Below, piece after piece: positions 36,201-58,994 of a stretch of 64,000 nt of DNA. How positions within the stretch are numbered: the first letter of the stretch is position 1; the number at the start of each line of letters is the position of its first letter. Source of the DNA: a virus; the IMG/VR virus record IMGVR_UViG_3300010157_000040, positions 32,001 to 96,000 of that record. One strand, given 5' to 3'. Made by a program: the position numbers and the translations under genes. The notes below the pieces were generated by a model. That model worked only from the letters and a program-made list of their open reading frames with translations. It did no database searches and was not told the origin of the DNA.

Positions 36201-36383
36201 GATTATATGCAAACAATTAATTATCAAACTTGGAACCCAAATACAAATTCATATGATAATCAAACAGTAGTAGATAATTCAACTGTTTTTGGAGCAAATT
36301 TGGAAAACAGTAGAGATGATTTTACACAATGGATAGATAATATGAAAATCCAGAATAAACTTATAGCCAATGGCAACTACTGA
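33288..36383 (+). CDS. Putative ejected cargo protein
   Basis: 1031 aa. N-terminal 'YIPQFQPFQPDL…KQSQYD' resembles crAss-like cargo proteins upstream of the RNAP. Confidence 0.6.
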   Translation: MATYLQGVTDYIPQFQPFQPDLNFYSNILQTKQSQYDTNWKALNTMYSQYYNADLTRTENADKKDQYIKGIDFNLKRVSQLDLSLEQNVDQATQVFKPFYQDKGLMKDMAWTKNYNAAVGRAESLKTAYDDKQRGQYWATGVTELNYLKDEFKNTTSDKAMNFGNVSYTPYVNVSEKAQKIAKDFGNMETPSFSKDGKFILKTKNGEQLIEPLSKLFESRLGDDPSVQALYKTQAYVNRKDYAYSNAAQFNGDKNAAEMKYLETSFTLLKEKSTARYNALKENSQGYTDKIANLQKQVDDKTASPEIQKQLADLKMNKDINDKVLTRSEEEQKTLNGGQSSTATTTTGFVNPYGDLESLRWKVDNGMASTLMQKDLNESAQLFAYSNYKQDIEANPYAVLEEKNRFSMQQIAARNAGLERAVKLKVAGDAKNTLNAARIAAGTHYLDEETGQVVPYEAFQNIISEPSDQAHTDKLNLKETSKRINDVQAQTTGIPYLKNTVGLIQKLVTEHSMTQQEASAILGYDKNPNISLDSFSKKLDKYGVNWMRNEVGAKNLHQIEKEMTTWLGRNSEQSGLNSEQYQAYRKSAIRFDDYTKYLKEDHEWRKTTSFEVERELRKQGLHGADYLYDNGGNLRTREEFIDIMEKKGKIDSQESKHEIIVSKIDKLANEKHKLLEDRYNNGKHFKNGIEAQQALHKANDSELKAFDQEIIKLRHQLPENLRNGYEMGKIKGNMYDNYEALVNAAGKVYTSGRIKKPLPGMAQFGEMEGTGTFAPRVNTILVNPKGHGPTSVFAGEVFRDLDNNIDWGDNTKNRASFRGFNKGSWDNHSNGDLNSTFRQVYEAMRNEQNTAKSKMGNYKITVSPLAAGSINKVAIVIKPDLTWLKTQVYNVDKDGNQNSPGTISYEQFKNISTYGMNMITDAKNMTNSLYTTAYQSPLQSYVDHHEGGYVYTDPLNPNYNLTIQKGAKGGGDYMQTINYQTWNPNTNSYDNQTVVDNSTVFGANLENSRDDFTQWIDNMKIQNKLIANGNY

Positions 36384-42267: not shown

Positions 42268-42268
42268 T

Positions 42269-45200
42269 ATGAAAATTACTTGTTCTTTAAAGCAGTCTCA
42301 AATTGAGAAACTGTATGCAAATATTTATGGGCACCTATTAGATAGTCAAAATAAAGGAAAAACTTTTGACTCTAAAGGATACATGATAAACTTATTTAAT
42401 AAGATTGCTACAAAAGGTGATGTAGAAACGGCTGCAAAATTTTTACAACAAGTACCTACATTAATTGGTACTGCATCATTTAGACCATCTTTAGAAGAAT
42501 TAGGTTTGCCAACAGATATGTTAAGACCTTTAATTAAAAGTTTTAAGAATGAAGATGCGGGTTTATTAAATGTAGTTAGTTATTTTAATCCTACATTAAA
42601 TATTAATGTACAACAAGAATTAATTGATCAATCAGAAAAGAATGCATTTGTTGTACCAGAAAATGATTCTGAAACTGTTACTAAAGATCTGTTTGATTAT
42701 TTACCCTATGACTCTTTTTCTACTACATTTCAAGAATTCTTAACTGTAGATCCAGATAAAGCTGCAACAAATGAACAACTTGATGTAAATAGAAAAGTTA
42801 TTTATGCAACACTTAAAGAACTTAAAAAAACTATTGGAACTACACCTAATTTAGGTAAACTTGTATATCAAAATGTTACTTTAAAATTAGTACCACAAAG
42901 ACTAGATACTGCTGATACAGATGAGTTAGATAAAACAACAAAAAGATTACAAAATAGATCAGAATTTTTAAATAGAAAAGGTGTAGCTCAACCTAATGTA
43001 ACTAAACCAAATGAAATTTTCTTAATGATAATTTCAAATGAAATAGGTGAACCAGTTTATTTTAATGATGAAGGATCAATTACTACAAAAGAAGAAGGTG
43101 GTAAACAAGTTTATCAATTCTTAAGAGATGCAAGAAAAAAAGGTGATAGATATACAGTAACTGATATTTATGGAAAAGATAATCAGATACTTAATGCAAA
43201 AGAACTTGCAACATTAATGGATAAAAATTCAAAAATTAAATTAAGTAAAGAAGAATTTAATAATTTAGTTGCAGAATTAGATAAAAAACAACAAGAAGAA
43301 TTTAAACAGTTATATAACTTTAGACAACGTTTGATTAAAGGTGAAATACCATTAATTAATATAACAGATGTAAGTCAAGGTATAAAAGAATATACCAATA
43401 AAGAAATTACATTAAGTAATATAAGAAGATATCCGTTTGGTACAGATCATGTATTTAAAACAATACAAACTATTAAGACTCCAAGAGGTCAGTTTAAAAA
43501 AGGTGAAGCAACAATTACTATAGAGGGTCAAGAATTTAAAATTGATAGACCAAACTTGACAGATGATTTAATTAAAAAAATTGCAACAGTATTAACTGAT
43601 AAAAATTTAAGTAAAGAACTAAGATATAGATTTTATTCACAATTTTTAGCAAATAAAGCATCTCTTGCAACAAGAAAACATACTTTATCTTATACTCCTG
43701 TTACAGATGAATTGATTTTTTCTTATTCAAAAAAAACATTTCAAGAAGGATACGATAGTAAGTTTACTGATGTTATGTTAGATAGTGATACAGCATACAC
43801 AGAAATATATGATGCATTAAAATTAGCTTCAGGTAAAAATGGTAATTACTTTTCTGCTAAAATGACTTATAATAAAGACTTGTTAAACATTAATGGTTAT
43901 CAAGATTATAATTTAGATACAAAAGAATTATCAGAAGATTTTATTCCTTATATTCCATTGCTTGAAACTCTTCCTAATACAAAGGTAGATGCTAGTGTAA
44001 CTAGTAATCCAAGATTTTTTAATTCATATATGAAGTTTGCACTTCCAAATGAGTTTACACAACAATTAGAAGAAGCACAAAACAGTTCAAATGATGCAGA
44101 AAAAGATGATTTCTTTGAAACTTTATCCGCACCTTCTGATGTAGAAAATTTAATGCCCAGTGAAAAGAAAAAAGTTATTGTTGATACACTTAAGTCTGAT
44201 AAGAAAATAGTAGGAACAATTACTAAACCTTTTGGTTCAGATACTAAATGGAAATTTATTACTGCAAAAGGAACAACAATAGATTTTTATTCTCATACAA
44301 ATAATATTACTGATTTAGATACAGTTGCTCAAGCTAATTTAAACTTACTTCCAGAAGTTGACTTTAATGGAAAAGTAATGACAGATGTTGTTGAGGTTAG
44401 AATAGGAGATAAAGTAATTGGTTATGTAAGAGAAACAGATGACTTTGATAAAGTAAATATTGTTGAACCAACAAAGTCTCAAGAAGAAATTGATGCAGAA
44501 ATAGAAGAAAAAATTAATCCTAAAAACACAAGTCATCCATCTGAAGATAGTTTATTTTTTACTAGGTCGGGTGATTTAACTAATAATGTAACAGAATCTG
44601 AAATTAAAGATGCTCATACATGGTGGGCTAAGTCAGATTTAACTAAACATATTGGTTTTAAAGAAGCAGTAAACATAGTTAATTCTGATGCATATGCAAG
44701 ATTTATGACTTATGGTGCTAGACTTAACGGTACATTAGGTACTATAGAAATTGCAAATAAAGGTTCTATGGTTGATGTTTATCATGAAGCATGGCACGGA
44801 TTTTCACAATTGTATTTAACTAGAAAACAAAAAACCTCTTTATACAAAGAAGTAAGAAGAAAATTAGGAAGAAATAAAAAATTATCATTCTTTGAAATAG
44901 AAGAAATAATTGCTGAAGAATTTAGAGAGTATGCAAAAAATCCTAAACCTAAACCTGATTCACCAGTAAGAAATACTATATTTAGAATAATATTAAACTT
45001 TTTAAGAGAAGTTTTTGGAAAAGGTAGTGTTACAAATGTTAGAGATATTAAAAAAGTTCAAGAATTATTTGATAATTTATATTTAAACAAAAATCTTAAT
45101 AAGTATACTCCTACTATTGATAATGTAATGTTTGATTTATTATATAGAAATAGTGGTATTGTTAAACCAGGAACATTAACTGATCAAGTACTAGATAGAC

Positions 45201-48200
45201 AAGATTCTAATCTAATTAAAGATAGTATGGATTCAATAATTTCTGATTTGGTTGATTCTGATAATGGTATCAAAGGAAATAAATCAGGAACTTTGGCTAT
45301 ACTGCTAGATAGTAGAAATAGAGATGAGTTATATAAACTAATTAATATTAATTTAAATAAATCTTTAAGTCATTATAAATCTACATTAGAAAAACTTGAT
45401 GATAAAGATGAAAATAAAAATACTAAAGAAGTTTTAGAAAATAGAGTAAGAATACTTCAAGCAGCTGTAGATAATTATGGAAATTCAAAAAGTGGTGTTA
45501 TACAATATCATATAGAAAATAGTACATTTGATTTAATTAAACAAAAATATACAACTCTTGAATTAGATGAAGAAGGTAATTTGTTTGATCCAAATAATAC
45601 TGACAATACAGAAAGATATGGTGATACTAAAGTTGGAGAAAAGTCTTTAATTCAGTTAGCTGGAAAAGAAACACTTTATATTCTTAAAAGTTTACATGAA
45701 GTTGTTGATGGTAAAATAAAGTATAATGAATTAGGTTATAAAAAATTAGCTCCTTTTAGAACTACCTGGAATAATACTGTAAGAGCAATCAGTGGTCTAC
45801 AAGATCCACAAGAAATGTATGATAAATTAGTTGAAGAAAGCAAAGTCAGTCCTGAGTTTAAACAGTTGACAGAAAATAAATTAGCTAATCCGTTAAATTC
45901 TAAAAATCCAAATGAACAAAAAGCAATAACTTCATTTTGGCAAGATTTTAACAAACCAAGAGTTCCATATATTCAGTTTACAATTTTTAAAAAGACAGAT
46001 GAAAATCCAAAGGGATCTTCTGAAGTTACTGAAGCATCAATTGAAACTAAAACTGTTATAAATAAATTTCAAAATAAATTTAAAGCAGATATTAATAGTG
46101 TATATATTAAAAGAATAGGTAAAGAAAACATTCCAACACTTGACATATCTGAGATAGTAAAAGATTTTTCTGATGCAAATGGTAATTTAGATATATCAAA
46201 ATCCTATGAGTTTGCAAGAGCTATTGGTTTTTATTTAGATGACATAGGTATAATCAAAAATACATTAAAGAAAGATGAATCTACCATACAACAGTTTGGT
46301 TTACCATACATCTTTAATGCTGTTAAAGTACTTAACCGTAAAGATAAACTACCAGTAAAGAGTGCTTTAGTAAGTAAATGGATTAGTAAATTTAAAACTA
46401 ATCCAATTAAAACATTAACAGAGGCTATACCTGTAGGTGTTATTGGTCCTGATATATTTAAACAAAAAAATAAGGTAGAAGCATTAGCAAGACTACAAGG
46501 AAGATATGGTGTTGACTCATCTAATTTTGGTGTATTTAATGCTGAAAGAAACTTAGTATTTGAACACATAGACAATAACAGTATTACTAAGATAGTTTAT
46601 GCATTAAACAATGCTGAAAAATTATCAGATCTTTGGGAATCAGATAAATTTAATTATACTAAGTTTTTAGACCCAAAAATAAATAGTTTTACAAATAGAT
46701 CTGGTATACTAAGATCATTATTTGACATGAGAGATCCAAAGAAATCTAAATTAAAAGATAGAGATCTTGAATTATTTATGAATTCTGGTACACAAGTAGA
46801 ACAATCTGCAGTAGGTTTAAATACTACATCTTTAGATGTTAATAGTAAAATGCTTCAGGAAATGAATACAATGCTTAAAGGTGGTGTTCAAGAATTTATG
46901 AGACATGCATCTAAGTCATCTTCATTTGGAGCAAGAATTAATGGAGGTATAGTTGGTAAACCTGGTAAACAAGGTAGTGATGAAAGGTTATGGGTAGATA
47001 TAGATATGTTTGCAAAAAATATAGCACATGACTATGCATTTACAGCACATCTTTTACCATACATGGAATCTGAAGCAGAAAGAATATTTAAGTGTAATAG
47101 TAATCTTGATACATTTAAAAATTATGTAGGTTATAATAGAGAACTTAGTAATGGTAGAATTGCTGGTCAAGAGTTTACTGCATTTGATAATGTATTAACT
47201 GATAATACTAAAGAACTTATTTATGCTGCAATTAATAAAGCAATAAAAAATAAAGAGTTGTTTAATCTTGGAACTTTTTTAAAAAATAATCCAACTTTAT
47301 TATCTACAGTTAAAAAAGAAACTGCCTTTTATTTTGCAGATCAAACTCGTGAAAATTTATATAAGTTAACAACAAGTAATTATATCAGTCCTAGTCTTAG
47401 AGAAAAATTAAATGTGTTTAATATTACTGAAGATGCACAAGATAAAGTTTTAGTTGATGCTTATACATATAATGCATGGATTCATAATTTTGAAACAGCA
47501 AGTTTATTTTATGGTGACATTGTACAATACAATCATGATAAAGAGGAGATGCATAAAAGAAATACTGGAGCAACTTCTGGTGGTAGAACTTTTAGAACTG
47601 ATATATCTGCACAAAACTTTGCAAATGGATATTTAGCTGATACATCATATGCAAAAAAACATAATGCCACTCCTATTAGTTATAATGGTACTTTTAATAC
47701 TGCTATCATAAAAGATATTGAAAGAACTTCTATATACTATCCAGATTTTGAAAAAGCATTAAGAGAAGATTATACTAAAAGATTTTCTAAAGTACTTGAT
47801 AAAAGTAAAGTAGCTGCAGCTGTAGAAGATAGAGTTGCAAAAGAAATTAAGAAGTATAAAGATATGGAAGAAGGTGATGGTCAAGGTTGGATCACATTTG
47901 ATGCATATAGATTATTAAAAACAAATGAAAATAGTTGGTCTAATGCACAAGAAGTATTGTTCCAAAAAATAAATAACAATCAACCAATAGAAGCAACAGA
48001 AATAACTGAAATGTTTCCTGTTTATAAATTGCAAAACTTTGGTCACTTAGCAAATACAGATTTGTTAGCACCAATAAATGCAATGCATAAATTTGCACTT
48101 ATGCCACTTATTCCTAGTATGATAGAAGGTACTGATTTAGAATCTTTACATCAACAAATGATGTCTAAGAACATTCAGTATTTAACATTTCAAACTGGTT

Positions 48201-51200
48201 CTAAAGTAGGTAGTGTAACTTCTAATGGTAAAGCAGATCAAATATATGATGCTAACTCTGACGAAAAGATTTTAAAAACAGATATTAAATTTACTCCAAA
48301 TACTATTTATGTTGATTATTTAAAAAATGTAACTGCTGTTCCATCTAAATTTAAAAACAAAACAGTTTTTTCAACACAGTTGAGAAAATTAATTCTTAGT
48401 AATTTATATGAAAATGGTAAAATCATTAATTCTGATAATACAAAAGCAATAAAAGAATATGAAGCTGCAGTAGATCATCATAGTAATTTATTAAAATTAG
48501 AATTACTTAATGAAATAGGATACGAGCATGATGTAAAGAATAATAAATATTATGGTAATGTAGATAAATTTTTAGATGTGGTTCAAGCTGAACTTGAAAA
48601 AAGAGATTTACCAGAACATTTAATTCAAATGGTTGGTCTTACTAGAGACAAGTCTTTAAGAACAGATTTATCATTACATTTAAAAGCAGATGAGATAGAA
48701 AAAATTCTTGTTGCTTTAGTTGAAAAAAGATTAATTAAACAAAAAGTTAAAGGTGAAGCATTAGTTCAGGTATCCAGTGCAATGACTAATGGTATATGGG
48801 ATCAAAAAACTAAATTTAAAAATGCTACAGTAGCTGATGTTAAAAAATTCATGGGTAGTAATAACTTACCTTTCTATCATCAAGATGCATCTGGTAATAC
48901 ATTAGCTATGAAAGTTGCTATTGCTTTACAAGGTGACTTTGTTAACTTACTTAAACTTAATCATTTAGATGGTCAACCTATAGGTACAAGAGCTAGATTA
49001 AATGATATGATTAAAGAAGACAAGTGGTTAGACTTAAATGATAATAGAAAGTCTGTTACTTTATCTGCTGTAAGAATACCAGTACAAGGATTAAACTCTA
49101 TGGAGTTTATGGAAGTATATGAATTTTTAGATCCAGCTGCAGGAAATATTATTATTCCTCCATCTGAAATTGTTGCTAAATCAGGAGCTGACTTTGATGT
49201 TGATAAGTTAACTACATTTATGCCACACATAGATTACAAAGGTAATTATGTGAAAGGTCAATTAAGTAATGAGGAGTTACTTAAAAAAGTTAATAAACTT
49301 AATGAAACTCCAGAAGGTAAAAAACTTGCAACTAATTTAATTAAGTCTCAAAAATCCGCATCTGAAAATAATTTAATAGCAACAATCAGAGGTATACTTG
49401 AACTAAAAGATAATTTTGCTAGTTTAATTAGACCAAATGATACATATTTATTAAAAGAAATAGCCGATGAGTTACAAGATCATGTAACAGATTACAATAG
49501 ATTTGGAAATGTACATAATGAAAATAGAACAGGACTTAAAAATCAAAAAGTTATTAGTCCTACTAGAGTATTAGAAGCAGGTTATAATTTACATAAACAT
49601 GAAGCCAACATGGTTGGTAAGAGAGTGTTAGGTATTATTGCTGTAGAAAATGCATTACATCCTATCTTTAATGCTATTGGTGCAGCAATGCCTAAAACAT
49701 ATAAAGAGTCAAGTTATGTAGGTAACAAGTATATTGATGGTAAAATTGACTATGATACTAGAATACTACTACCTACAAATATGACAAAGGATGGTAGAAT
49801 TTCATTGTCTGGAACTGAAACTTCTGATGGTATGGATAACATAGGAGAATTATTTTCTCAAATGTTAAATGGTGCTGTGGATGTTGAAAAAGATGCATGG
49901 ATATTCTTTATTCAAGGTAACTATGAATTAATTCCAATGCTTACATTTTTGTTTAAAGCAGGTGTACCTAAAGAACAAGCAATTATGTTTGTATCACAAC
50001 CACTTGTTAGAGAATATGCAAAACAACAAAGAGAAGTAAAGAGTGCATATGCTACACTTACTGGTGTTGTACCTGAAGATTATAATCCAATGTTTGCTAA
50101 ATATACAGCAGCACAAAATACATTAGAAGGTAAGAATCTTAACAGTGTAATTAATAAAGCTACTGCATTAAAAGTTAAAGATGTTTTAAGTTTACAAGGT
50201 GATACAGAAATAAAGTTTGCAGAAAATAAAGTATATAAAACTAAAAAAGCAAGTACTATACTAAAAGAAATTAAAGATGGTACTATAGATCCAACAAAAA
50301 TTACCTATATGGTAAATAATGAAACTGGTGAAAAAATATTCAAACCAATTGGAAAACATCCTGTATCTAATGCAAACTTTTATTATACAGCTAAAGCAGC
50401 AACAGAAAATAAAAAAGAATTTTCATTAGAAGAATTAAAGCAAAATGTAGTTGATAATGATAGTACTTCACCACAAGCAATTGCAGCTTTCTTACATTTA
50501 TTAGAAATTGAAAAGTCATCAAAAGGATTCAGTGTATTAAAAATGCAAGCAAATCCGGATACTAAAACATCTAAGACAATTCAAGAAATAATTAAAAGAA
50601 ACTTATCACTTGAAGATATTAAAGAATTATCAAAATTAGAACCAGGATTAGTAGACAAATTACAAAAGTCAATACTAGGTACTTTCTTTGATAACAAACT
50701 AATTAAAGATTTAGTAGTACCAGTATTCCAATTAAGAAATAATGATGTTGTTACTTCAACTATTTTAAAATTACTAGATAAAAACTCAAATTCAATAGCA
50801 GAAAAGTTTGGTAAAGGTCAAGATGGTGCTAGTCAGTTTATTACACAGTTTAAAAATGCAATTCCTAATTACATTTATCAAAACTATATGTCTCACTTTA
50901 TTGATAAAGCAGGTAATTTAACTGATACTCCAACTGAATTTAATGAACTTACCGTAAAAAATGTAGCGGGAACTACTAATGGAGCAAAAGTAGTAGGTAA
51001 TAATATATATGTAGATACGGAAAGACTAAGAAATGAATTTGAAAATAAACTGTACACAAGAGAAAGTACACTTGAAGGTAACTATAAAGAATCTGGATTA
51101 AGAGGATTTAAACTTCAAGATGATATGTTCCCTAACTTATCTTCTTATGTAAGATATGTATATGAAAGAGAATATCAAAGACATTTATATCCAATTGATT

Positions 51201-53092
51201 CTTTAAAAACTAATAAAGATTATTTAAAGTTTAAATCAGATTTTAAATCTGCAGGTGTAGATGAAAGTAAATTAACTGATGTAGCATATGAAGCATATCT
51301 AAATCAAAGAGCATTAATAAATGCATTTAATAGAGAAGCAATTATGGGTATGGAAGATTATTCATATACTGATATGGTTTTAAATATGGTAGAAGAATTT
51401 TCTAACTTAAAACATAAGTATCCAATTGTTAATCAATTCACTAAACCTAAAGTTGTTACAAGAAATATACACGGTCAGGTACTTAAAGAAAATTATGTTT
51501 TAACATTAAATGATGTTAAAGAATTAAAAGATGGTCAACTTGCAGAAGTATATTACCAAAATATAAAAGATCTTGGAGATGAAACTGTAAAGAAAGTATC
51601 TAATATAGAAGATAATAAAAGAATTAGTAAATTATTTAGTCTGTTGCCTATGATGATGATATATCAACATGGTTTAGGATATAGTAAATATGGATTTAAT
51701 GAAGCATTACCATATAATGATTTTATAGGTGTAATGCAAACAGCAGCAGATATTTATGAAGATAAAATTCTTAATGAACAATCTTTATATTCTATTTATA
51801 ATTTACTAATGAATGAGAATAATGCAAACTTTAAAGATTATGTTGCACCAAGAGCTAAAGATTATAAAAATCCAGTTGCTAGTGAATTCTCAAATCCTGT
51901 AGTAACAACTGTTGAAGAATTAGATGATAGCATGAGAGCATTATTAATGAAAAATGCTGTTCCTGTAGTACAACCATCTACTAATGTTGAATATAATTAT
52001 AATCCATCAAATGTATCTGAGCAAACAAGAGATGATTATAAACAATATGTATTAAAACAACTTGGAAAACCTGAAATTAAAGCTAAAGCAAATGCATTTG
52101 ATTTTATATATCCAGATTTAACAATTACAATATCTAAAGATGGTTCTCTTAGTTACACAAATGTTAATCAAAAAATTGTAGATTTATCTAAAACAGATTC
52201 TGGATATGATCTTAAATTTATGGTTGGTTTAAATAAATTAGCTGAAGAGTTTACTCAACCATCTGCTAGTGTTGAAACAGAAGTAGTAATTCCAGGTGTT
52301 GAAATTAAAAGAAATGTTATAACTAAAGAAGAACAACTTGAGTTATTTAATATTCTTAAACCTTATATTGAAAAACAAGGAGCCACAACCAATAAAGCTA
52401 CTAGTGCAAATGTAATGATTGGATTAGGTTTAAGATGGGATTATAAATCAAATAATCCTAATTATAAAGCTATTGAAATAAAAAATATTATTGTACCTGG
52501 AAGTAGTGCTAAGTATGGTTATTATGAAGTATCTATTAATGGTCAACCATTAGGTCCTATTAATCCTAGAATTAAAACATTAATGTCTAAAGCTACTGGT
52601 ATAGATGCTACTGATTATGATGGGGCTATAATAAATCTTTATACAGATAAAACTTTTATAAGTGCTCATAATGATGTAGATGAAGCTGCTGATGCTATTG
52701 GATATCCTGTACTTGTTTTAAATATAGGTGGAAGTGGCAATTTTAGTGTACAACAAACTGGAAAATATGAACCTACTCCTCTTAATTCTGGAGACTCATA
52801 TATTTTTGGAATAAATGGAGAAAACAGAAAAGTAATGCATAGAACTTTTCCTTCTAAACAAGATGGATTTTTACCTGCAATAACTACAGCAATAGATGGA
52901 GAAACTTATTCAAAAGGAAGTTATAGATTATCTATTACTTTAAGAAGAGTAAAAAATCTAAAACCAGGAATGCCTACAGTACCAGCTAAAGTTGTTACTC
53001 AACCATCTACTAGTGAACCTACAGATATAGTTAAAACAATTAGTCCTAATGGTAAACCACCAATTGAAAGAACATCATCAGATTGTGAATAA
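42269..53092 (+). CDS. Virion-packaged single-chain RNA polymerase (crAss-type) with zincin and C-terminal AlkB domains
   Basis: 3607 aa. RIPVQG…GADFDVDKL catalytic DxDxD (49190-49204), EEGDGQG, HEAWH (44783-44797), and AlkB HND…H…RLSITLR. Confidence 0.9.
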   Translation: MKITCSLKQSQIEKLYANIYGHLLDSQNKGKTFDSKGYMINLFNKIATKGDVETAAKFLQQVPTLIGTASFRPSLEELGLPTDMLRPLIKSFKNEDAGLLNVVSYFNPTLNINVQQELIDQSEKNAFVVPENDSETVTKDLFDYLPYDSFSTTFQEFLTVDPDKAATNEQLDVNRKVIYATLKELKKTIGTTPNLGKLVYQNVTLKLVPQRLDTADTDELDKTTKRLQNRSEFLNRKGVAQPNVTKPNEIFLMIISNEIGEPVYFNDEGSITTKEEGGKQVYQFLRDARKKGDRYTVTDIYGKDNQILNAKELATLMDKNSKIKLSKEEFNNLVAELDKKQQEEFKQLYNFRQRLIKGEIPLINITDVSQGIKEYTNKEITLSNIRRYPFGTDHVFKTIQTIKTPRGQFKKGEATITIEGQEFKIDRPNLTDDLIKKIATVLTDKNLSKELRYRFYSQFLANKASLATRKHTLSYTPVTDELIFSYSKKTFQEGYDSKFTDVMLDSDTAYTEIYDALKLASGKNGNYFSAKMTYNKDLLNINGYQDYNLDTKELSEDFIPYIPLLETLPNTKVDASVTSNPRFFNSYMKFALPNEFTQQLEEAQNSSNDAEKDDFFETLSAPSDVENLMPSEKKKVIVDTLKSDKKIVGTITKPFGSDTKWKFITAKGTTIDFYSHTNNITDLDTVAQANLNLLPEVDFNGKVMTDVVEVRIGDKVIGYVRETDDFDKVNIVEPTKSQEEIDAEIEEKINPKNTSHPSEDSLFFTRSGDLTNNVTESEIKDAHTWWAKSDLTKHIGFKEAVNIVNSDAYARFMTYGARLNGTLGTIEIANKGSMVDVYHEAWHGFSQLYLTRKQKTSLYKEVRRKLGRNKKLSFFEIEEIIAEEFREYAKNPKPKPDSPVRNTIFRIILNFLREVFGKGSVTNVRDIKKVQELFDNLYLNKNLNKYTPTIDNVMFDLLYRNSGIVKPGTLTDQVLDRQDSNLIKDSMDSIISDLVDSDNGIKGNKSGTLAILLDSRNRDELYKLININLNKSLSHYKSTLEKLDDKDENKNTKEVLENRVRILQAAVDNYGNSKSGVIQYHIENSTFDLIKQKYTTLELDEEGNLFDPNNTDNTERYGDTKVGEKSLIQLAGKETLYILKSLHEVVDGKIKYNELGYKKLAPFRTTWNNTVRAISGLQDPQEMYDKLVEESKVSPEFKQLTENKLANPLNSKNPNEQKAITSFWQDFNKPRVPYIQFTIFKKTDENPKGSSEVTEASIETKTVINKFQNKFKADINSVYIKRIGKENIPTLDISEIVKDFSDANGNLDISKSYEFARAIGFYLDDIGIIKNTLKKDESTIQQFGLPYIFNAVKVLNRKDKLPVKSALVSKWISKFKTNPIKTLTEAIPVGVIGPDIFKQKNKVEALARLQGRYGVDSSNFGVFNAERNLVFEHIDNNSITKIVYALNNAEKLSDLWESDKFNYTKFLDPKINSFTNRSGILRSLFDMRDPKKSKLKDRDLELFMNSGTQVEQSAVGLNTTSLDVNSKMLQEMNTMLKGGVQEFMRHASKSSSFGARINGGIVGKPGKQGSDERLWVDIDMFAKNIAHDYAFTAHLLPYMESEAERIFKCNSNLDTFKNYVGYNRELSNGRIAGQEFTAFDNVLTDNTKELIYAAINKAIKNKELFNLGTFLKNNPTLLSTVKKETAFYFADQTRENLYKLTTSNYISPSLREKLNVFNITEDAQDKVLVDAYTYNAWIHNFETASLFYGDIVQYNHDKEEMHKRNTGATSGGRTFRTDISAQNFANGYLADTSYAKKHNATPISYNGTFNTAIIKDIERTSIYYPDFEKALREDYTKRFSKVLDKSKVAAAVEDRVAKEIKKYKDMEEGDGQGWITFDAYRLLKTNENSWSNAQEVLFQKINNNQPIEATEITEMFPVYKLQNFGHLANTDLLAPINAMHKFALMPLIPSMIEGTDLESLHQQMMSKNIQYLTFQTGSKVGSVTSNGKADQIYDANSDEKILKTDIKFTPNTIYVDYLKNVTAVPSKFKNKTVFSTQLRKLILSNLYENGKIINSDNTKAIKEYEAAVDHHSNLLKLELLNEIGYEHDVKNNKYYGNVDKFLDVVQAELEKRDLPEHLIQMVGLTRDKSLRTDLSLHLKADEIEKILVALVEKRLIKQKVKGEALVQVSSAMTNGIWDQKTKFKNATVADVKKFMGSNNLPFYHQDASGNTLAMKVAIALQGDFVNLLKLNHLDGQPIGTRARLNDMIKEDKWLDLNDNRKSVTLSAVRIPVQGLNSMEFMEVYEFLDPAAGNIIIPPSEIVAKSGADFDVDKLTTFMPHIDYKGNYVKGQLSNEELLKKVNKLNETPEGKKLATNLIKSQKSASENNLIATIRGILELKDNFASLIRPNDTYLLKEIADELQDHVTDYNRFGNVHNENRTGLKNQKVISPTRVLEAGYNLHKHEANMVGKRVLGIIAVENALHPIFNAIGAAMPKTYKESSYVGNKYIDGKIDYDTRILLPTNMTKDGRISLSGTETSDGMDNIGELFSQMLNGAVDVEKDAWIFFIQGNYELIPMLTFLFKAGVPKEQAIMFVSQPLVREYAKQQREVKSAYATLTGVVPEDYNPMFAKYTAAQNTLEGKNLNSVINKATALKVKDVLSLQGDTEIKFAENKVYKTKKASTILKEIKDGTIDPTKITYMVNNETGEKIFKPIGKHPVSNANFYYTAKAATENKKEFSLEELKQNVVDNDSTSPQAIAAFLHLLEIEKSSKGFSVLKMQANPDTKTSKTIQEIIKRNLSLEDIKELSKLEPGLVDKLQKSILGTFFDNKLIKDLVVPVFQLRNNDVVTSTILKLLDKNSNSIAEKFGKGQDGASQFITQFKNAIPNYIYQNYMSHFIDKAGNLTDTPTEFNELTVKNVAGTTNGAKVVGNNIYVDTERLRNEFENKLYTRESTLEGNYKESGLRGFKLQDDMFPNLSSYVRYVYEREYQRHLYPIDSLKTNKDYLKFKSDFKSAGVDESKLTDVAYEAYLNQRALINAFNREAIMGMEDYSYTDMVLNMVEEFSNLKHKYPIVNQFTKPKVVTRNIHGQVLKENYVLTLNDVKELKDGQLAEVYYQNIKDLGDETVKKVSNIEDNKRISKLFSLLPMMMIYQHGLGYSKYGFNEALPYNDFIGVMQTAADIYEDKILNEQSLYSIYNLLMNENNANFKDYVAPRAKDYKNPVASEFSNPVVTTVEELDDSMRALLMKNAVPVVQPSTNVEYNYNPSNVSEQTRDDYKQYVLKQLGKPEIKAKANAFDFIYPDLTITISKDGSLSYTNVNQKIVDLSKTDSGYDLKFMVGLNKLAEEFTQPSASVETEVVIPGVEIKRNVITKEEQLELFNILKPYIEKQGATTNKATSANVMIGLGLRWDYKSNNPNYKAIEIKNIIVPGSSAKYGYYEVSINGQPLGPINPRIKTLMSKATGIDATDYDGAIINLYTDKTFISAHNDVDEAADAIGYPVLVLNIGGSGNFSVQQTGKYEPTPLNSGDSYIFGINGENRKVMHRTFPSKQDGFLPAITTAIDGETYSKGSYRLSITLRRVKNLKPGMPTVPAKVVTQPSTSEPTDIVKTISPNGKPPIERTSSDCE
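51968..53017 (+). repeat. Three in-frame ~21-24 bp direct repeats encoding (T/V)QPS(T/A)(S/N)
   Basis: 51968 GTACAACCATCTACTAATGTTGAA; 52253 ACTCAACCATCTGCTAGTGTTGAA; 52997 ACTCAACCATCTACTAGTGAA. Confidence 0.85.
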
Positions 53093-53123
53093 AAATAAGT
53101 ACATTTATAATATAATTTAAGTT

Positions 53124-56100
53124 ATGCCTTGTCCTATTAAAATAAAAGAATTTTTAACTAATCAAGTTTTTGAAAAAGGTCAAGCAGGTCTTTTTATGAG
53201 AAAAGAACTTGCTGATAAATTAGCTGCAGATATTAATGCTGAGTATGATGCTAAAGTTATAAAATTTACTAAGTACTTTGATCACTTAGAAAGAGAAATT
53301 ACTATTCCTCAATCTTTAATTGATGAGTATTATGATGCAGAACTTCAAGAAGAAATTAAAGAAATGAAATCTGCAGAAAGAGAAGCAGAAGAACAACAAC
53401 TACAAGAAGATATAAGAGCAGGTAAAGTATTAGTAGAAAATCTTGATGTAGATACAGATAATAATGATTATAACTTTAATGAAAACTTTACTGAAGACTA
53501 TTACAAAACTAAAGTAATAGAAAATAGAGACTTACAAATTGCTCAAAAACTTGGTGAAAAATATGCTAAAGCATTTAATGTTTCATATTCTATAATTACA
53601 CCAGGAGAAGCAGCAATCTTATTAGAAGATAGTCCAACACCATTTACATCTGATGTATCTTCATTTTTTTATGATAATGCTATTTACTTTATAGAAGGTA
53701 AATTTACTGCAGCATCTGTATTACATGAATTTGCTCACCCATTAGTTAAAGGTATAGCATTTCAAAATCCAAAGTTATTTCAAAATTTGTTTTCACAGCT
53801 CACTAGTACTAATACTGGAATTGATGCATTAACAAAAGTAAAAGATAAGTATCCGGAACTTGATGAGGATTCAGATAGATTTAAAGAAGAAGCAATTGTT
53901 ACAGCCATGGAAATGGATGCTGCAATGGAAATTGAAAATGTTAAAAATAATGACAGTGCATTTGCTAAGTTTATACAAAACTTAATTTTTGCAATTAAAA
54001 AAGTTATTAAAGCTTTAACAGGAAATATTAATCTTAAAAACTTATCTACATCAACTACCAGAGATGAGTTAGTTAATATGATGCTTAATGAAGATTTTCA
54101 AATAGAAGATTTAAAATATCAGTTATCATTATTTGCTGAATTTAAAAAAGATACGGAAGATTATATTAAAGAACTTAAAGATACTACACCTAAAAAATTA
54201 GTTGAAGCAATTAATAAGTTTCATAATGAAATGACTTTCCAAATTGGTGTACTTAAAAATTCTCCTAAAAAACTTAGAGAAGAACTAAAAGGAAAAGAAG
54301 GATTAGATGTATTACGTAATATAAAAGATTATGTAAAAGGTTATAAAACTGCAGGAGAAGATTTAACTGAAGAAGAATTAGAAGAATTATTTAAAAATTT
54401 AGGTGAAGAACAAGATGACTTAAGAGTACGTTCACTTGCATTTATAAATAGTTTAACTGAGTTAGAAGTTTTTGCAAGAAGAGTACAAACTTTACTATCT
54501 GATATGAGAAAGTCAGATAAGTTTATGACTTATGATGGTAATGGTAAAATTCAATATTTTAAACAATTCATGGAGAGAGAAGTAAAATTCTTGAATGAAG
54601 TAAGAAGATCACTTGCATTAGATCCTTCTAATGAATTAGTTAAAAAAATATTAGCAATTAAAGCAGTTGTTGAAGATAATGTTGAAAATGCTAAAGAAAT
54701 GACATTTGAATTTGTTAAAGGGTTTTTTATGGAAAACAGTATAACAATGCAAAAAAATGTTAAAGAAAAATTAGAAGAAACAATTGATAGAGTTTTAAAA
54801 GCTGAAAAATTTACCCAGGATGACATTGATGTATTTAAAGATGATTTATTTAATAAGTTAGATATAGATAATATTAAAGGAATAAAACAATCAGATTTTT
54901 TATTACCAAGTATTCCTAAAGGAGCAAAATATATTTTATCAGAAATTGGTAATTATAATTCAAACAAAATTACTGAAGAAACAGTAGATAATTATTTAAG
55001 AGGTCATGTAAGAGATTTAGGTATGATGGGATCACTTGCAACTCCTATGGGTAATGTTAATGATATGTTTGGATCTTTTGTAAATTTTATGAAATCTAAA
55101 TTATCAAATGCTGAAGTTAAAAGTTTAGATAAACAATATAAGATAGCTGAAGAATTACAACCTTATTTAAATGCTGTTGGAATAAATCATAATGATACTA
55201 AAGCTATTGCAGATTTAGTATTATTTATTGATACTGTACCAGATACAGATGAACATGGAAATTTTATTGAAAAACAAATCTATGCATATCTTGATAAATT
55301 TCAAAACTGGAGAGCAGATAGAGGTAAGTTAGAATTTGATTTAGAAAAAGCTAGAACTTTAGGAAAGAAAGATGAAATAAAAGCAGCTATGCAAGCTCGG
55401 TGGGAGTTTGATGAAAAATACATGCAACGGAAGTATGTAGATGCTGTTTATGATGTTAAAAAGATGTGGAGACAAGATAATGTTTTATTAAATCCTGCAA
55501 CAGGAAAAGAAATAAAAATATCTGCAAGTACTTCTATTGAAGCATATATGGAAAGACAATCTGCATTAGATGATTTGGCAACATTTAATAGTTCAAACTT
55601 TACTGAATTAGATGATCTTAATGAATTTACTCCTTCAAAAGCTGCTAAAATTAAATATGATGAATTGTTTAACATGTTTAATTTAAACGGTGAATATAAA
55701 CAAGGTAAAGAATTAGAAAAAGTATTAATAAGAAGAGCATACAGAGAACAGTCTAGAAAATTTAATGAGAGCACTACTAATATTGATAAAGTACAAAAAG
55801 ATTTAGATCATTTTGTTAATGTAACTTTAGCTGGTATGGGTATAACTAAAGATTCTGATTCTGCAAAATATGAATCTGAGATTGCTAAGTTTACTAGTAA
55901 AAACTTTAAGATAGCATATACTAATGAATACTTTCAAGAAAGAAATGCAACATTAGATGCTATTAAAAAAATAAATGAAAAAACAAAAGGGTCAGATATT
56001 TCTAAACAGTTAGCTAATTTATATGAACAAAGATATAATTTAGTAAATAGAGTAACTGATAAAGATGGAGAACCTAATGGTTTAATGTTAGGTCAAGATC

Positions 56101-58994
56101 AAATCAAAAGACTTAAAAGTATTGAAGAAGAAATTGTTGCAGCACAAGAACAGTTTGATAGAAAAACTGGTTTATCTAAAGAAGATTCAAATAGATTAAA
56201 ATACTTTGAAGAAGAAATAATTGGTAAAGGTAAGTTTAATGAAATGACACCTGAAGATAAAGCTGAATATCAAAATCTATCTAACAATAGAACAGCATTT
56301 GGTTTGTCTGGTCAAGAAACAACTTATTTAAGAGGTTTATATAGAAAACTTAATGAACTTACTGATACACAAGCAACTGATTATTATATCACTGCATTTA
56401 ATAATGCATTAGGTGATGCTGATGTTCCAATTGCAACAATAGAAACTGCTGATAACTGGATTAATTCAAATGATGTAATGAAAGCAAAAGCTGAAAGTTC
56501 TGCATTTGCTGAATGGTTTGATAGAAATCATTATACTAGACCAAGTTTTGATCAAGAAACCGGAGAGTACATGAATAAGTACTATAGGTTAAAAGCATGG
56601 ACTATAAGTAAACCAAGTGATTCTTCATTTTATAAAAAAACAGAATTAGTTGATCCTACTACTGGTGATAAACTTACAGTAGATGGAGTTCCTATTGCTA
56701 AATATTCATATACTAAAATTAAAGATGAATTTTTTACAGGATATGATGCAAAGACTAAAACTATTAATAAAAAAGTAGGAGTGCATGTAGATAACAGAGG
56801 TAACTTTTTACCTAAGACATTTGCTATTGGAGATGTGAATGATAAATACATGAATAAAAAATATTTTGAACTTCAAAAAGCAAACAATGCACAATATAAA
56901 TTACTTGAAAAATTAAAACAAAATATATTAGATGTACAAGAAGATTCACAATTTGCATCAAGAATGTATTTAGATTTTGCTAGATTTAGAATTGATACTA
57001 ATCTTGAATATTTACAAAAAGGTAAGCTTCAAGAAAGTATAAAAGATAAGAAAAATATTGTATTACAAAATCTAAAGGCTGCTGTTACTGCAGCTAAAGA
57101 TGACCCGGAAAGAAGTTTGAATTTTGATAATAAATATTTATTAGTTCCAACAGACTTACAAGGTAAACCAATTGCTAAAGTTCCTATTAGAGGATTATTT
57201 AATTTAGATATTAATACTGTTTCTACAGATGTGTTTAGATCAATGTTTAATTATATGTATTCAATTGATCAACAAAATGCATTAATAGAAAATGAACCAT
57301 TAGCACAAGCACTACTTAATGTATATAGAGATCCAGATAATGCAATTGATAAATTAGATAGAGCAAGTAAAACTCTTGCAAAAATAGATGATAAAGCATC
57401 TTCTTTCTTAAAAAGATCTACTAATAAAAGATTACAGTTAGCTGAAGATTTTATTAACAGAACTTTTTATGGTCAAATTACTAGTGAATTTCAACAAGAA
57501 AATGTAATGACAACTAAAATTGCAAAAGGTTTAGTTGGTCAAGCAAGTAGAGCATTTTATGCATTAAACTTACAATCCTCAGTAAAAAATAAATGGGGAA
57601 TGACAGTGCAGAAACTTATATATTCTGCAGGTGGAAAATATATTGACTATCCTTCAATGGCAAGAGGTCAAATATCTGCAACAAAAGCAATGTTTGAATA
57701 TGCTGCTAAAGGTGCATATGCAAAAGGAATGAAAAGTTTACCAATGCAAATGATGGATAAGTTTGATATGAATCCAGGAAAAACTAAATCTGAGTTTGGT
57801 AAATCTACTACAAGAACAGCTGTAAAAGATTTATTAGATGGTGCATGGATGTATTCTGATAGAAAATTATTAGAACTAGAAGGAGCATTAGAACTTGGAT
57901 TTGCAGTTATGGAAAAACAACTTGTTGATCAAGTACAAGATGATGGTTCAGTAACACAAATAAGATATGCAGATGCATTTGAAACTAATGCAGAAGGTAA
58001 AATGGTGTTAAAGAAAGGTATTGATCCTGAATGGGGAACAGAAGAACTTACTCATACTGTACAAGTAGGGGACACATTAGATTCTATTGCTAAGAAATAC
58101 CATATGACAGCAGAAGAATTAAAATCAAAAAATAAAATTACAGAACTTCCGGAACTAGGTGAAGATATAACAATTTCAACAAATAAGAAATTTAATGATG
58201 TTAAACTAATCATAGCATCAGTAAATAAAAAACTGAATGGTACAATGACCAACATTGATGGACCAGCAGCTGAAAAGTATTTGTTATATAATCTATTTAG
58301 TTTTTCAAGAAAATATGCCACAGGTATGTTCTTGCAAAGATTTCAAATGGATACTTCTAAAGGTAATAAAGGTAATGAAACATGGGATTGGGACACTAAT
58401 GATACAACTAAAGGAACATACATAGAATTCTTACAACTATCAGGTAAATTAATTAAAGGTTTTAGTACATACTGGCCAATTATGAAACCTTCAGAAAAAG
58501 CTGCTGCTAAACAAGTAATTATGGAAGGTATGTTATTATTTCTTATAGGAATGGTAATAACTTATTTATTTGGTTATGATCAAGGTGATGAAGATAGATT
58601 TGCTAAAATTAAAGCACGTGAAGATAAATATGGTGCTGCAGGATTTATGGCAAACCATTTATTATATCAGTTAATGATGGTAAAGAAAGAAAATCAATCT
58701 TTTATTCCACTTCCTGGAGTAGGTTTAAATGATTGGTTAAGTTTTGGTAAAGCAACTACAATTGTAATAGGTCCAACATTAGGTGTATATGGAAAAATAT
58801 TTGTTGATCTTGGTCAAATCTTAATTGGTAGTGATAAAGCTACATATAAACAAGATGTTGGTCCATATTCATGGCAAAAACAAGATGTATATAAGATTTG
58901 GAATCACATAGGTTCATTATTTGGTGTATCAGGTAAGAATGTTAGTCCTTATTGGTCTATCAAGAAGAAAGAGATATTTGAAAACATGAATTAA
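53124..58994 (+). CDS. Giant cargo protein with zincin motif, LysM domain and C-terminal hydrophobic helices
   Basis: 1956 aa. HEFAH (53724-53738); LysM HTVQVGDTLDSIAKKY…LGEDITI (~58050-58176); hydrophobic MLLFLIGMVITYLF. Confidence 0.75.
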   Translation: MPCPIKIKEFLTNQVFEKGQAGLFMRKELADKLAADINAEYDAKVIKFTKYFDHLEREITIPQSLIDEYYDAELQEEIKEMKSAEREAEEQQLQEDIRAGKVLVENLDVDTDNNDYNFNENFTEDYYKTKVIENRDLQIAQKLGEKYAKAFNVSYSIITPGEAAILLEDSPTPFTSDVSSFFYDNAIYFIEGKFTAASVLHEFAHPLVKGIAFQNPKLFQNLFSQLTSTNTGIDALTKVKDKYPELDEDSDRFKEEAIVTAMEMDAAMEIENVKNNDSAFAKFIQNLIFAIKKVIKALTGNINLKNLSTSTTRDELVNMMLNEDFQIEDLKYQLSLFAEFKKDTEDYIKELKDTTPKKLVEAINKFHNEMTFQIGVLKNSPKKLREELKGKEGLDVLRNIKDYVKGYKTAGEDLTEEELEELFKNLGEEQDDLRVRSLAFINSLTELEVFARRVQTLLSDMRKSDKFMTYDGNGKIQYFKQFMEREVKFLNEVRRSLALDPSNELVKKILAIKAVVEDNVENAKEMTFEFVKGFFMENSITMQKNVKEKLEETIDRVLKAEKFTQDDIDVFKDDLFNKLDIDNIKGIKQSDFLLPSIPKGAKYILSEIGNYNSNKITEETVDNYLRGHVRDLGMMGSLATPMGNVNDMFGSFVNFMKSKLSNAEVKSLDKQYKIAEELQPYLNAVGINHNDTKAIADLVLFIDTVPDTDEHGNFIEKQIYAYLDKFQNWRADRGKLEFDLEKARTLGKKDEIKAAMQARWEFDEKYMQRKYVDAVYDVKKMWRQDNVLLNPATGKEIKISASTSIEAYMERQSALDDLATFNSSNFTELDDLNEFTPSKAAKIKYDELFNMFNLNGEYKQGKELEKVLIRRAYREQSRKFNESTTNIDKVQKDLDHFVNVTLAGMGITKDSDSAKYESEIAKFTSKNFKIAYTNEYFQERNATLDAIKKINEKTKGSDISKQLANLYEQRYNLVNRVTDKDGEPNGLMLGQDQIKRLKSIEEEIVAAQEQFDRKTGLSKEDSNRLKYFEEEIIGKGKFNEMTPEDKAEYQNLSNNRTAFGLSGQETTYLRGLYRKLNELTDTQATDYYITAFNNALGDADVPIATIETADNWINSNDVMKAKAESSAFAEWFDRNHYTRPSFDQETGEYMNKYYRLKAWTISKPSDSSFYKKTELVDPTTGDKLTVDGVPIAKYSYTKIKDEFFTGYDAKTKTINKKVGVHVDNRGNFLPKTFAIGDVNDKYMNKKYFELQKANNAQYKLLEKLKQNILDVQEDSQFASRMYLDFARFRIDTNLEYLQKGKLQESIKDKKNIVLQNLKAAVTAAKDDPERSLNFDNKYLLVPTDLQGKPIAKVPIRGLFNLDINTVSTDVFRSMFNYMYSIDQQNALIENEPLAQALLNVYRDPDNAIDKLDRASKTLAKIDDKASSFLKRSTNKRLQLAEDFINRTFYGQITSEFQQENVMTTKIAKGLVGQASRAFYALNLQSSVKNKWGMTVQKLIYSAGGKYIDYPSMARGQISATKAMFEYAAKGAYAKGMKSLPMQMMDKFDMNPGKTKSEFGKSTTRTAVKDLLDGAWMYSDRKLLELEGALELGFAVMEKQLVDQVQDDGSVTQIRYADAFETNAEGKMVLKKGIDPEWGTEELTHTVQVGDTLDSIAKKYHMTAEELKSKNKITELPELGEDITISTNKKFNDVKLIIASVNKKLNGTMTNIDGPAAEKYLLYNLFSFSRKYATGMFLQRFQMDTSKGNKGNETWDWDTNDTTKGTYIEFLQLSGKLIKGFSTYWPIMKPSEKAAAKQVIMEGMLLFLIGMVITYLFGYDQGDEDRFAKIKAREDKYGAAGFMANHLLYQLMMVKKENQSFIPLPGVGLNDWLSFGKATTIVIGPTLGVYGKIFVDLGQILIGSDKATYKQDVGPYSWQKQDVYKIWNHIGSLFGVSGKNVSPYWSIKKKEIFENMN

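What the first reader, a model, noticed from the sequence alone, without database searches (positions are those of the whole stretch)
52277..52996. AlkB-type 2OG-Fe(II) dioxygenase fused to the virion RNA polymerase
Seen: YDGAIINLY…SAHNDVDE…VLVLNIGG…LNSGDSYIF…VMHRT…RLSITLRRV, which is the full HxD…H…RxxxxxR signature. Established: AlkB enzymes oxidatively demethylate DNA/RNA bases, and crAss-like RNAPs are virion-packaged. Inference: the phage co-injects a demethylase that could repair alkylation or erase host-imposed base marks on the incoming genome or early transcripts.
Basis: partly seen in the sequence, partly recalled or inferred. Interest (0 to 1): 0.7.

Follow-up and report, generated by a model that had tools for sequence, protein, structure and literature searches.

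The report
Swappable AlkB demethylase on phage RNA polymerase
A crAss-like phage carries an intact AlkB-type DNA/RNA demethylase as an in-frame, recently exchanged module at the tail end of its giant RNA polymerase (a homologue of a polymerase known to be injected), so a base-repair or base-erasing enzyme probably enters the host cell with the phage genome.

Summary
Window 52277-52996 encodes residues ~3337-3576 of a 3,607-aa ORF (42269-53092). The domain passes Pfam 2OG-FeII_Oxy_2 (52.7 bits, cut-off 31.2). Its model (pLDDT 87) matches E. coli AlkB best (TM up to 0.79), and it keeps every AlkB iron, 2-oxoglutarate and base-pocket residue. The iron ligands and key 2OG contacts are invariant in 237 relatives. 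The carrier is a true crAss-type virion RNA polymerase homologue: it matches phi14:2 gp66 (E 7e-27), and DFDVD aligns to gp66's catalytic DFDID.

New here: the domain is a mobile cassette. Two syntenic relatives are ~68-76% identical in flanking DNA but 97% and 94% identical across the cassette (dS 0.055/0.154 against 0.76-0.98). The island ends at TQPS-coding linker repeats. AlkB-anchored searches found 167 giant proteins with the domain, 154 with the RNAP catalytic region. Only 5 of 76 RNAP-anchored viral loci have it, and none of 50,697 deposited phage genomes. NADAR directly follows AlkB in some relatives.

The searched papers do not describe this. Activity, substrate and packaging are untested. 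The scan's first readers had noted this stretch and its repeats before, on this same genome. Verdict: new variant of a known kind, interest 0.62.

The parts
42269..53092 (+). Giant ORF (3,607 aa plus stop): crAss-type virion RNA polymerase homologue carrying a C-terminal module array
   Evidence: Single open frame; tblastn match to phi14:2 g066 'Catalytic RNA polymerase subunit', E 2e-21, and to crAss002/cr85_1 RNAP genes
46649..50128 (+). RNAP core region (aa 1461-2620); aa 1461-2321 align to gp66
   Evidence: blastp to gp66, E 7e-27; conserved in 103 of 120 AlkB-bearing giants
49190..49204 (+). Catalytic metal-binding motif DFDVD (aa 2308-2312)
   Evidence: The only DxDxD in the ORF; aligns with gp66 DFDID 1361-1365; D-x-D-x-D invariant in alignment A4
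51971..51991 (+). First QPST linker copy (VVQPSTNVE); similarity to L003 ends at this point (to L002 at 51778), and the module array begins
   Evidence: Repeat family D8; similarity to L003 ends at 51993 and to L002 at 51778
51992..52243 (+). Module X, 84 aa, unknown function, absent from L002 and L003
   Evidence: No Pfam hit, no atlas lead, no relatives among the AlkB giants
52240..52287 (+). Upstream linker repeat (AEEFTQPSASVETEVV)
   Evidence: 48-nt direct repeat, 75% identical to 52984-53031; the high-identity island starts at 52244/52251
52289..52983 (+). AlkB-type Fe(II)/2OG dioxygenase domain (aa ~3341-3572)
   Evidence: PF13532 at 52.7 bits; AF2 pLDDT 87.2; Foldseek top 21 hits are E. 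coli AlkB; dS 0.055/0.154 against relatives
52667..52684 (+). H-N-D-V-D-E (H3467, D3469, D3471, E3472), equivalent to E. coli AlkB H131-Q-D133-K-D135-E136
   Evidence: Profile and MAFFT alignment to E. coli AlkB; H, D and E 100% conserved in 237 copies, D3471 in 70%
52838..52840 (+). Distal iron ligand H3524 (E. coli H187)
   Evidence: 237 of 237 conserved
52925..52945 (+). R-L-S-I-T-L-R (R3553...R3559), equivalent to E. coli R204-Y-N-L-T208-F-R210, the 2OG-binding strand
   Evidence: R3559 and T3557 100% conserved, R3553 85%
52984..53031 (+). Downstream linker repeat (AKVVTQPSTSEPTDIV)
   Evidence: the high-identity island ends at 53015/53012
53032..53092 (+). Conserved C-terminal tail ...PPIERTSSDCE* with penultimate Cys3606
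   Evidence: The same tail follows different modules in L002 and L003; 156 of 167 relatives have a Cys in the last 6 residues

Best explanation
Shown here: residues ~3341-3572 of the crAss-type virion RNA polymerase homologue form a complete AlkB-family Fe(II)/2-oxoglutarate dioxygenase module with all catalytic and base-pocket residues intact. It is one slot in a C-terminal array of modules joined by TQPS-type flexible linkers. The module has been exchanged recently and repeatedly between divergent phage RNAP genes. Inferred: the module is packaged and ejected into the host as part of the RNA polymerase. Once it meets Fe(II), 2-oxoglutarate and O2 in the cytoplasm, it oxidatively removes alkyl adducts of the 1-methyladenine/3-methylcytosine type from single-stranded nucleic acid. 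The most likely substrate is the phage template DNA that the polymerase opens, and possibly the first transcripts, before any phage gene has been expressed. Whether those adducts come from environmental alkylation of the dormant virion or from a host enzyme is open.
For: Domain identity: PF13532 at 52.7 bits over the full profile; model pLDDT 87.2; the 21 best PDB matches are all E. coli AlkB, E 1.7e-12, target TM 0.72-0.79. Residues W69, Y76, Y78, N120, Y122, H131, D133, D135, E136, H187, R204, T208 and R210 of E. coli AlkB are matched by identical residues. Selection for catalysis: the iron ligands, the N/Y 2OG contacts, the R210 equivalent and the E136 equivalent are 100% conserved in 237 copies; dN/dS is ~0.2 in the cassette. 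Carrier: gp66 homology with DFDVD aligned to DFDID; gp66 is annotated as a virion protein found by MS/MS; the gene sits in the structural block. Recurrence: 154 of 167 AlkB giants contain the RNAP catalytic region. Mobility: 97% and 94% nt identity in the cassette against 67-76% in the flanks, bounded by the linker repeats; dS 0.055/0.154 against 0.76-0.98; Spearman 0.13 between AlkB and RNAP identity, with 44 discordant pairs. Single-strand logic: gp66 transcribes ssDNA or denatured DNA efficiently and dsDNA poorly (bioRxiv 10.1101/2020.03.07.982082). Established knowledge: AlkB lesions arise in and are repaired best on single strands. Theme: NADAR, a DNA-base de-ADP-ribosylase that phages use against DarTG1 (PMC11543638, PMC11825919), directly follows AlkB in P0039 and P0043.
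Against: No activity, substrate or packaging data exist for this protein. Virion delivery is inferred only from homology and gene position, and blastp found no similarity between the neighbouring genes and the virion-protein genes flanking gp66 in phi14:2. The domain is far from cellular AlkB (about 18% identity; TIGR00568 26 bits against a 231 cut-off), and it has clade-specific insertions in the lid, so specificity could differ. Only 5 of 76 related RNAPs carry it, so it is dispensable for RNAP function. The genome also has a standalone AlkB-like gene, so the need for a fused copy is not self-evident. The linkers might be cleavage sites that remove the module before packaging.
Confidence: 0.55

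Rival explanations
1. Counter-defence or epigenetic eraser. The injected AlkB removes methyl groups that a host enzyme places on incoming phage DNA or RNA, or strips protective host methylation, rather than repairing chemical damage.
For: The distribution is sporadic (5 of 76), with recent horizontal exchange and strict conservation of the active site, the pattern typical of arms-race cargo. It sits next to NADAR, a proven anti-DarTG1 activity in phages. Iyer et al. 2021 proposed mark-resetting for sporadic phage AlkB-like genes (PMC7824862). Delivery with the genome makes most sense against an immediate host attack.
Against: I know of no defence system that installs m1A/m3C-type marks, and none turned up in the searches. 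The base pocket (D3471/E3472, equivalent to D135/E136) resembles the damage-repair enzyme. E. coli AlkB handles m6A only poorly (established knowledge).
Confidence: 0.22
2. RNA-directed function. As in plant flexivirus replicases, the domain keeps viral RNA (here the nascent early transcripts) free of methyl lesions, or it demethylates host tRNA or rRNA to reprogramme translation.
For: AlkB domains embedded in viral replicases repair RNA (PMC2553587, PMC544882). The module is tethered to the enzyme that makes the first transcripts.
Against: Short-lived bacterial mRNAs are poor repair targets. The fold is closest to E. coli AlkB rather than to ALKBH1, ALKBH3 or other AlkB homologues, which rank lower. 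The neighbouring modules (NADAR, RecD-like helicase) point to DNA.
Confidence: 0.12
3. The domain is not a nucleic-acid demethylase. It is either a protein hydroxylase or demethylase, or a catalytically irrelevant structural passenger of the ejected protein.
For: Some AlkB homologues act on proteins (established knowledge). The clade is very divergent from cellular AlkB. Other array modules have no recognisable enzymatic function.
Against: The nucleotide-lid residues W3390, Y3416 and Y3418 and all cofactor ligands are 97-100% conserved. A passenger would not keep them, and dN/dS is about 0.2.
Confidence: 0.06

Closest known systems
Escherichia coli AlkB (DNA oxidative demethylase; PDB 3KHB, 2FD8, 3I3Q)
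   Same: Same fold (best Foldseek matches). Identical residues at the iron triad, the 2OG contacts, the D135/E136 base-recognition pair and the W69/Y76/Y78 lid.
   Different: About 18% identity. Fails the TIGR00568 equivalog cut-off (26 against 231 bits). Has a ~20-residue insertion in the lid and a longer loop before the R-x5-R strand. It is a module of a 3,607-aa virion protein homologue rather than a 216-aa cytoplasmic enzyme of the Ada regulon.
AlkB domains inside replicase polyproteins of plant RNA viruses (Flexiviridae; Bratlie and Drablos 2005, PMC544882; van den Born et al. 2008, PMC2553587)
   Same: An AlkB domain fused in frame to a viral polymerase protein, sporadically distributed and apparently acquired horizontally; shown to be active demethylases.
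   Different: Those are eukaryotic RNA viruses with RNA-dependent polymerases made after entry. Here the carrier is a DNA phage's two-barrel RNAP homologue that is probably pre-made and injected. The phage clade forms its own sequence family (212 hits in 1.84 billion representatives).
crAss-like virion RNA polymerase, phi14:2 gp66 (Drobysheva et al.; PDB 6VR4 recalled from memory)
   Same: Homologous core with the aligned DFDxD catalytic motif; position in the structural gene block.
   Different: gp66 is 2,180 aa and has no AlkB. The window protein is 3,607 aa with long extra N- and C-terminal regions and a linker-delimited module array. phmmer against PDB sequences gave no direct hit.
Orphan NADAR and antitoxin-like counter-defence enzymes of phages (PMC11825919), and sporadic standalone AlkB-like genes of jumbo phages (PMC7824862)
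   Same: Phage-encoded enzymes that reverse base modifications; NADAR occurs in the same array directly after AlkB in relatives.
   Different: Those are free-standing genes expressed after infection. Here the eraser is physically part of a protein that is probably injected.

Membership tests
AlkB family (Pfam PF13532, 2OG-FeII_Oxy_2) | Profile match above the curated gathering score | tested here: met
   52.7 bits against 31.2, profile 1-194 of 194; 52.8 bits in the genome search
AlkB family (Pfam PF13532, 2OG-FeII_Oxy_2) | Double-stranded beta-helix fold with the AlkB nucleotide-recognition lid | tested here: met
   AF2 pLDDT 87.2, pTM 0.83; top 21 PDB matches are E. coli AlkB, target TM 0.72-0.79; W69/Y76/Y78 equivalents present
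AlkB family (Pfam PF13532, 2OG-FeII_Oxy_2) | HxD...H iron triad | tested here: met
   H3467, D3469 and H3524; 237 of 237 conserved
AlkB family (Pfam PF13532, 2OG-FeII_Oxy_2) | 2-oxoglutarate ligands (NxY and Rx5R) | tested here: met
   N3456, Y3458, R3553 and R3559
AlkB family (Pfam PF13532, 2OG-FeII_Oxy_2) | Fe(II)/2OG-dependent oxidative dealkylation of nucleic-acid bases | not testable with these tools
   Needs an enzyme assay
Bacterial AlkB orthologue (NCBIfam TIGR00568 / PRK15401 equivalogs) | Score above the equivalog cut-off | tested here: not met
   26.3 bits against 231, and 14.1 against 267. It is a separate, phage-specific clade, not an orthologue of cellular AlkB
crAss-like virion RNA polymerase (gp66 type) | Sequence homology to an experimentally characterised member | tested here: met
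   tblastn E 2e-21; blastp E 7e-27 over about 860 residues
crAss-like virion RNA polymerase (gp66 type) | Catalytic DxDxD motif in the aligned position | tested here: met
   DFDVD 2308-2312 aligned to DFDID 1361-1365; invariant in A4
crAss-like virion RNA polymerase (gp66 type) | Two double-psi beta-barrel domains in one polypeptide | not tested
crAss-like virion RNA polymerase (gp66 type) | Present in the virion and ejected into the host | not testable with these tools
   Only indirect: position in the structural block and the MS/MS-based annotation of gp66

The most novel reading that the evidence does not exclude
The C-terminus of these virion RNA polymerases is a hot-swappable 'first-responder' array of base-adduct erasers (AlkB, NADAR, perhaps DUF7831 and others). 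The modules are exchanged between phages by recombination at conserved linker-coding repeats. The strong selection on the AlkB module would then reveal a still-unknown host defence that methylates incoming phage single-stranded DNA or RNA at Watson-Crick positions.
Probability: 0.2. Interest if true: 0.85.

Novelty: new variant of a known kind. Interest (0 to 1): 0.62.

Why it matters
Phage genomes are most vulnerable in the minutes before their own genes are expressed. A repair or eraser enzyme welded to the polymerase that is probably injected would act in that gap. The find gives three things. First, a defined, expressible 250-residue module whose substrate preference would show what kind of base damage or marking threatens incoming phage DNA. 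Second, a clear natural example of in-frame domain cassettes being traded between giant virion proteins. Third, a catalogue of neighbouring modules (NADAR, DUF7831, helicases, an HExxH module) that may be a source of new counter-defence activities. It also extends the 'AlkB fused to a viral polymerase' theme from plant RNA viruses to DNA phages.

Tried and rejected
- PHROGs gave no family for the RNAP ORF or the domain.
- phmmer of the 3,607-aa ORF against PDB sequences gave nothing. The gp66 link came only from tblastn.
There is therefore no habitat or expression data, and the idea that the O2-dependent cassette is confined to oxic habitats is untested; the only habitat hint is one relative (P0034) listed from a 'tara' source, presumably Tara Oceans.
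- The DUF7831 fold reached only pLDDT 60.6, so no fold search was run on it.
- The protein atlas gave no lead for module X.
- blastp of the neighbouring giants against partial phi14:2 g065/g067 found nothing.
- Base composition does not mark the cassette as foreign.
- The TQPS linker as a general boundary was rejected: it occurs upstream in 6 of 167 and downstream in 25 of 167 relatives.
- A second AlkB-like lineage in L033 is sub-threshold (23.7 against 31.2 bits) and is not claimed.
- The residue numbering printed was wrong because of --keeplength; the mapping rests on the motif positions and the printed alignment.
- Four literature searches found no description of AlkB on a phage virion RNAP. 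The library misses many subscription papers.
Full report
**1. The observation**

The opposite strand is full of stops. The stretch is the C-terminal part (about residues 3337-3576) of a single 3,607-aa ORF, 42269-53092. No Met lies between the upstream linker and M3383, so this is a true fusion and not a separately initiated gene. Pfam 2OG-FeII_Oxy_2 (PF13532) matches at E 8e-14 and 52.7 bits (cut-off 31.2), over the whole 194-position profile.

**2. The domain is AlkB-like**

- A model built on 23 relatives has mean pLDDT 87.2 and pTM 0.83. Only the flanking linker and tail are disordered.
- In the PDB, the 21 best Foldseek matches are all E. coli AlkB (E 1.7e-12, target TM 0.72-0.79). ALKBH1, ALKBH2, ALKBH3 and ALKBH6 rank lower.
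- I aligned the clade against E. coli K-12 AlkB taken from the annotated genome. These E. coli residues are matched by identical residues:

| Role | E. coli AlkB | Window protein |
|---|---|---|
| Nucleotide lid | W69, Y76, Y78 | W3390, Y3416, Y3418 |
| 2OG contacts | N120, Y122 | N3456, Y3458 |
| Iron ligands and base pocket | H131, D133, D135, E136 | H3467, D3469, D3471, E3472 |
| Distal iron ligand | H187 | H3524 |
| 2OG-binding strand | R204, T208, R210 | R3553, T3557, R3559 |

- In 237 near-complete copies of the clade, the iron ligands, the N/Y pair, the R210 equivalent and the E136 equivalent are 100% conserved. The D135 equivalent is conserved in 70% and the R204 equivalent in 85%.
- The domain is not an orthologue of cellular AlkB. 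Identity is about 18%, and the NCBIfam equivalog scores 26 bits against a 231 cut-off.
- An exhaustive phmmer search of 1.84 billion representatives found only 212 hits at E <= 0.001, nearly all inside giant proteins or their fragments.

**3. The carrier is a crAss-type virion RNA polymerase homologue**

- The window holds a crAss-type major head protein, a tail fibre, a run of giant ORFs, and then a reverse-strand replication module.
- Residues 1461-2320 of the ORF hit phi14:2 g066, 'Catalytic RNA polymerase subunit' (E 2e-21), and RNAP genes of crAss002 and other crAss-like phages.
- The only DxDxD in the ORF, DFDVD at 2308-2312, aligns with gp66's single DFDID at 1361-1365.
- gp66 is annotated as a virion protein on the basis of MS/MS. 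It is published as an early-gene RNAP that works well on single-stranded DNA and poorly on double-stranded DNA.
- Packaging of the window protein itself is an inference.

**4. How common the fusion is**

- AlkB-anchored searches returned more than 158 giant proteins of 2,000-5,900 aa with this domain at 50-95% identity.
- Across all retrieved proteins, 167 giants carry the domain and 154 of them contain the RNAP catalytic region. AlkB lies downstream of DxDxD in 141 and upstream in 12.
- Nearly all short hits are gene-call fragments. At most three look standalone.
- In a sample anchored on the RNAP catalytic motif instead, only 5 of 76 3'-complete IMG/VR frames carry the cassette.
- None of 50,697 deposited phage genomes has it.
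- It is therefore a widespread but minority accessory module of uncultured crAss-like phages.

**5. The domain is a mobile cassette**

- A 48-nt imperfect direct repeat brackets the domain: 52240-52287 encodes ...FTQPSASVE... and 52984-53031 encodes ...VTQPSTSEP.... A third QPST copy lies at 51971.
- Two syntenic relatives, L002 and L003, match the window at 67-76% nucleotide identity through the RNAP gene and the next gene. Across 52244-53015 and 52251-53012 they match at 96.9% and 94.4%.
- Synonymous divergence is 0.055 and 0.154 in the cassette, against 0.76-0.98 in the flanks, at similar dN/dS. Low dS cannot come from protein-level constraint, so it indicates recent recombinational exchange.
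- Array content differs among close relatives, while the same short tail (...RTS.DC[QE]*) follows:

| Phage / protein | C-terminal modules |
|---|---|
| window | [X][AlkB] |
| L002 | [AlkB][Y] |
| P0030 | [AlkB][HEILH module] |
| L003 / P0029 | [DUF7831][AlkB][HEILH module] |

- Family-wide, AlkB identity is nearly uncoupled from RNAP identity (Spearman 0.13 over 9,180 pairs). In 44 pairs AlkB is at least 85% identical while the RNAP catalytic region is far more divergent, down to 24-29%.
- The TQPS linker itself is specific to this lineage. Within the window it occurs only in this array.

**6. Mechanism**

Shown: an intact, selected AlkB active site with an AlkB-type base pocket, tethered by flexible linkers to a crAss-type virion RNAP homologue.

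Inferred: the module enters the cell with the polymerase and becomes active on meeting Fe(II), 2OG and O2. It then removes m1A/m3C-type adducts from single-stranded nucleic acid. The template strand exposed by an RNAP that prefers ssDNA is the natural candidate.

In relatives, NADAR directly follows AlkB. NADAR is a DNA-base de-ADP-ribosylase family that phages use against DarTG1. This supports reading the array as a set of base-adduct erasers, and it keeps open the rival that AlkB counters a host-imposed modification rather than chemical damage. The patchy, horizontally traded distribution fits that rival as well. Other rivals are RNA repair, as in plant flexivirus replicases, and a non-nucleic-acid or passenger role, which the conserved lid and cofactor residues make unlikely.

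**7. Novelty**

AlkB enzymes, crAss virion RNAPs and AlkB domains in plant-virus replicases are all known. Sporadic standalone AlkB-like genes in jumbo phages have been noted. Four literature searches found no description of AlkB, or of a linker-delimited cassette array, on a phage virion RNAP. I rate it a new variant of a known kind.

First readers of this scan had already flagged this same stretch and its TQPS repeats on this genome. I tested and confirmed the repeat-cassette idea here.

**8. Limits**

There are no activity, substrate, packaging, habitat or expression data. The census is a capped sample of the closest 80 loci, not the whole collection.

Noticed in passing
window 42251-42283 and 53068-53135 (ends of ORFs 36370-42267, 42269-53092, 53124-58994): The three consecutive giant proteins are almost Cys-free but carry Cys at their abutting termini: F has Cys1964 of 1965, the RNAP has Cys5 and Cys3606 of 3607, and H's only Cys is Cys3. 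Family-wide, 132 of 140 AlkB giants have a Cys in the last 6 residues and 78 of 140 in the first 8, with a median of 2 Cys per protein. In the RNAP-anchored sample, 71 of 80 have the C-terminal Cys. This suggests disulfide or metal-mediated chaining or anchoring of the ejected proteins.
   Followed up: partly
outside the window: G000:C1:12181-12672 (L024:1399-1890, + strand): The same phage genome has a second, standalone 163-aa AlkB-like gene (PF13532 at 44.2 bits; HID...H...RISIVFR) of a different lineage that lacks the W69-type lid.
   Followed up: partly
window 36370-42267 (+): The giant ORF just upstream of the RNAP has an exonuclease-family match (phrog_298, aa 1587-1665, about window 41128-41364) and a weak T4-lysozyme-like stretch (aa 614-711). 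It looks like another protein, probably ejected, that carries enzymatic modules.
   Followed up: no
window 53124-58994 (+): The giant ORF downstream of the RNAP contains a LysM-type peptidoglycan-binding motif at aa ~1636-1681.
   Followed up: no
L003:4700-5190 and L003:5960-6769; L027-L034: Other array modules in relatives: DUF7831 (PF25176, 43.6 bits), a mostly viral small-protein family of unknown function, recurs near giant-protein C-termini between TQP/VQPT linkers; an HExxH (HEILH) module follows AlkB in L003, P0029 and P0030. The DUF7831 model was too poor to interpret.
   Followed up: partly
L033:1-5601: One giant C-terminal region combines a RecD-like SF1 helicase (AAA_30 at 89.7 bits), DUF7831, and a sub-threshold second AlkB-like lineage (23.7 bits, 'LINRYGDD...HTDAE...RYSINFRH') followed by a NADAR-like stretch that I judged by eye; Pfam did not report NADAR there. 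This may be an independent acquisition of an AlkB-type module.
   Followed up: partly
window 42269-53092 and 53124-58991: GC3 is extremely low in the two giant genes measured (0.04-0.11). No tRNA genes occur in the 64-kb window.
   Followed up: no
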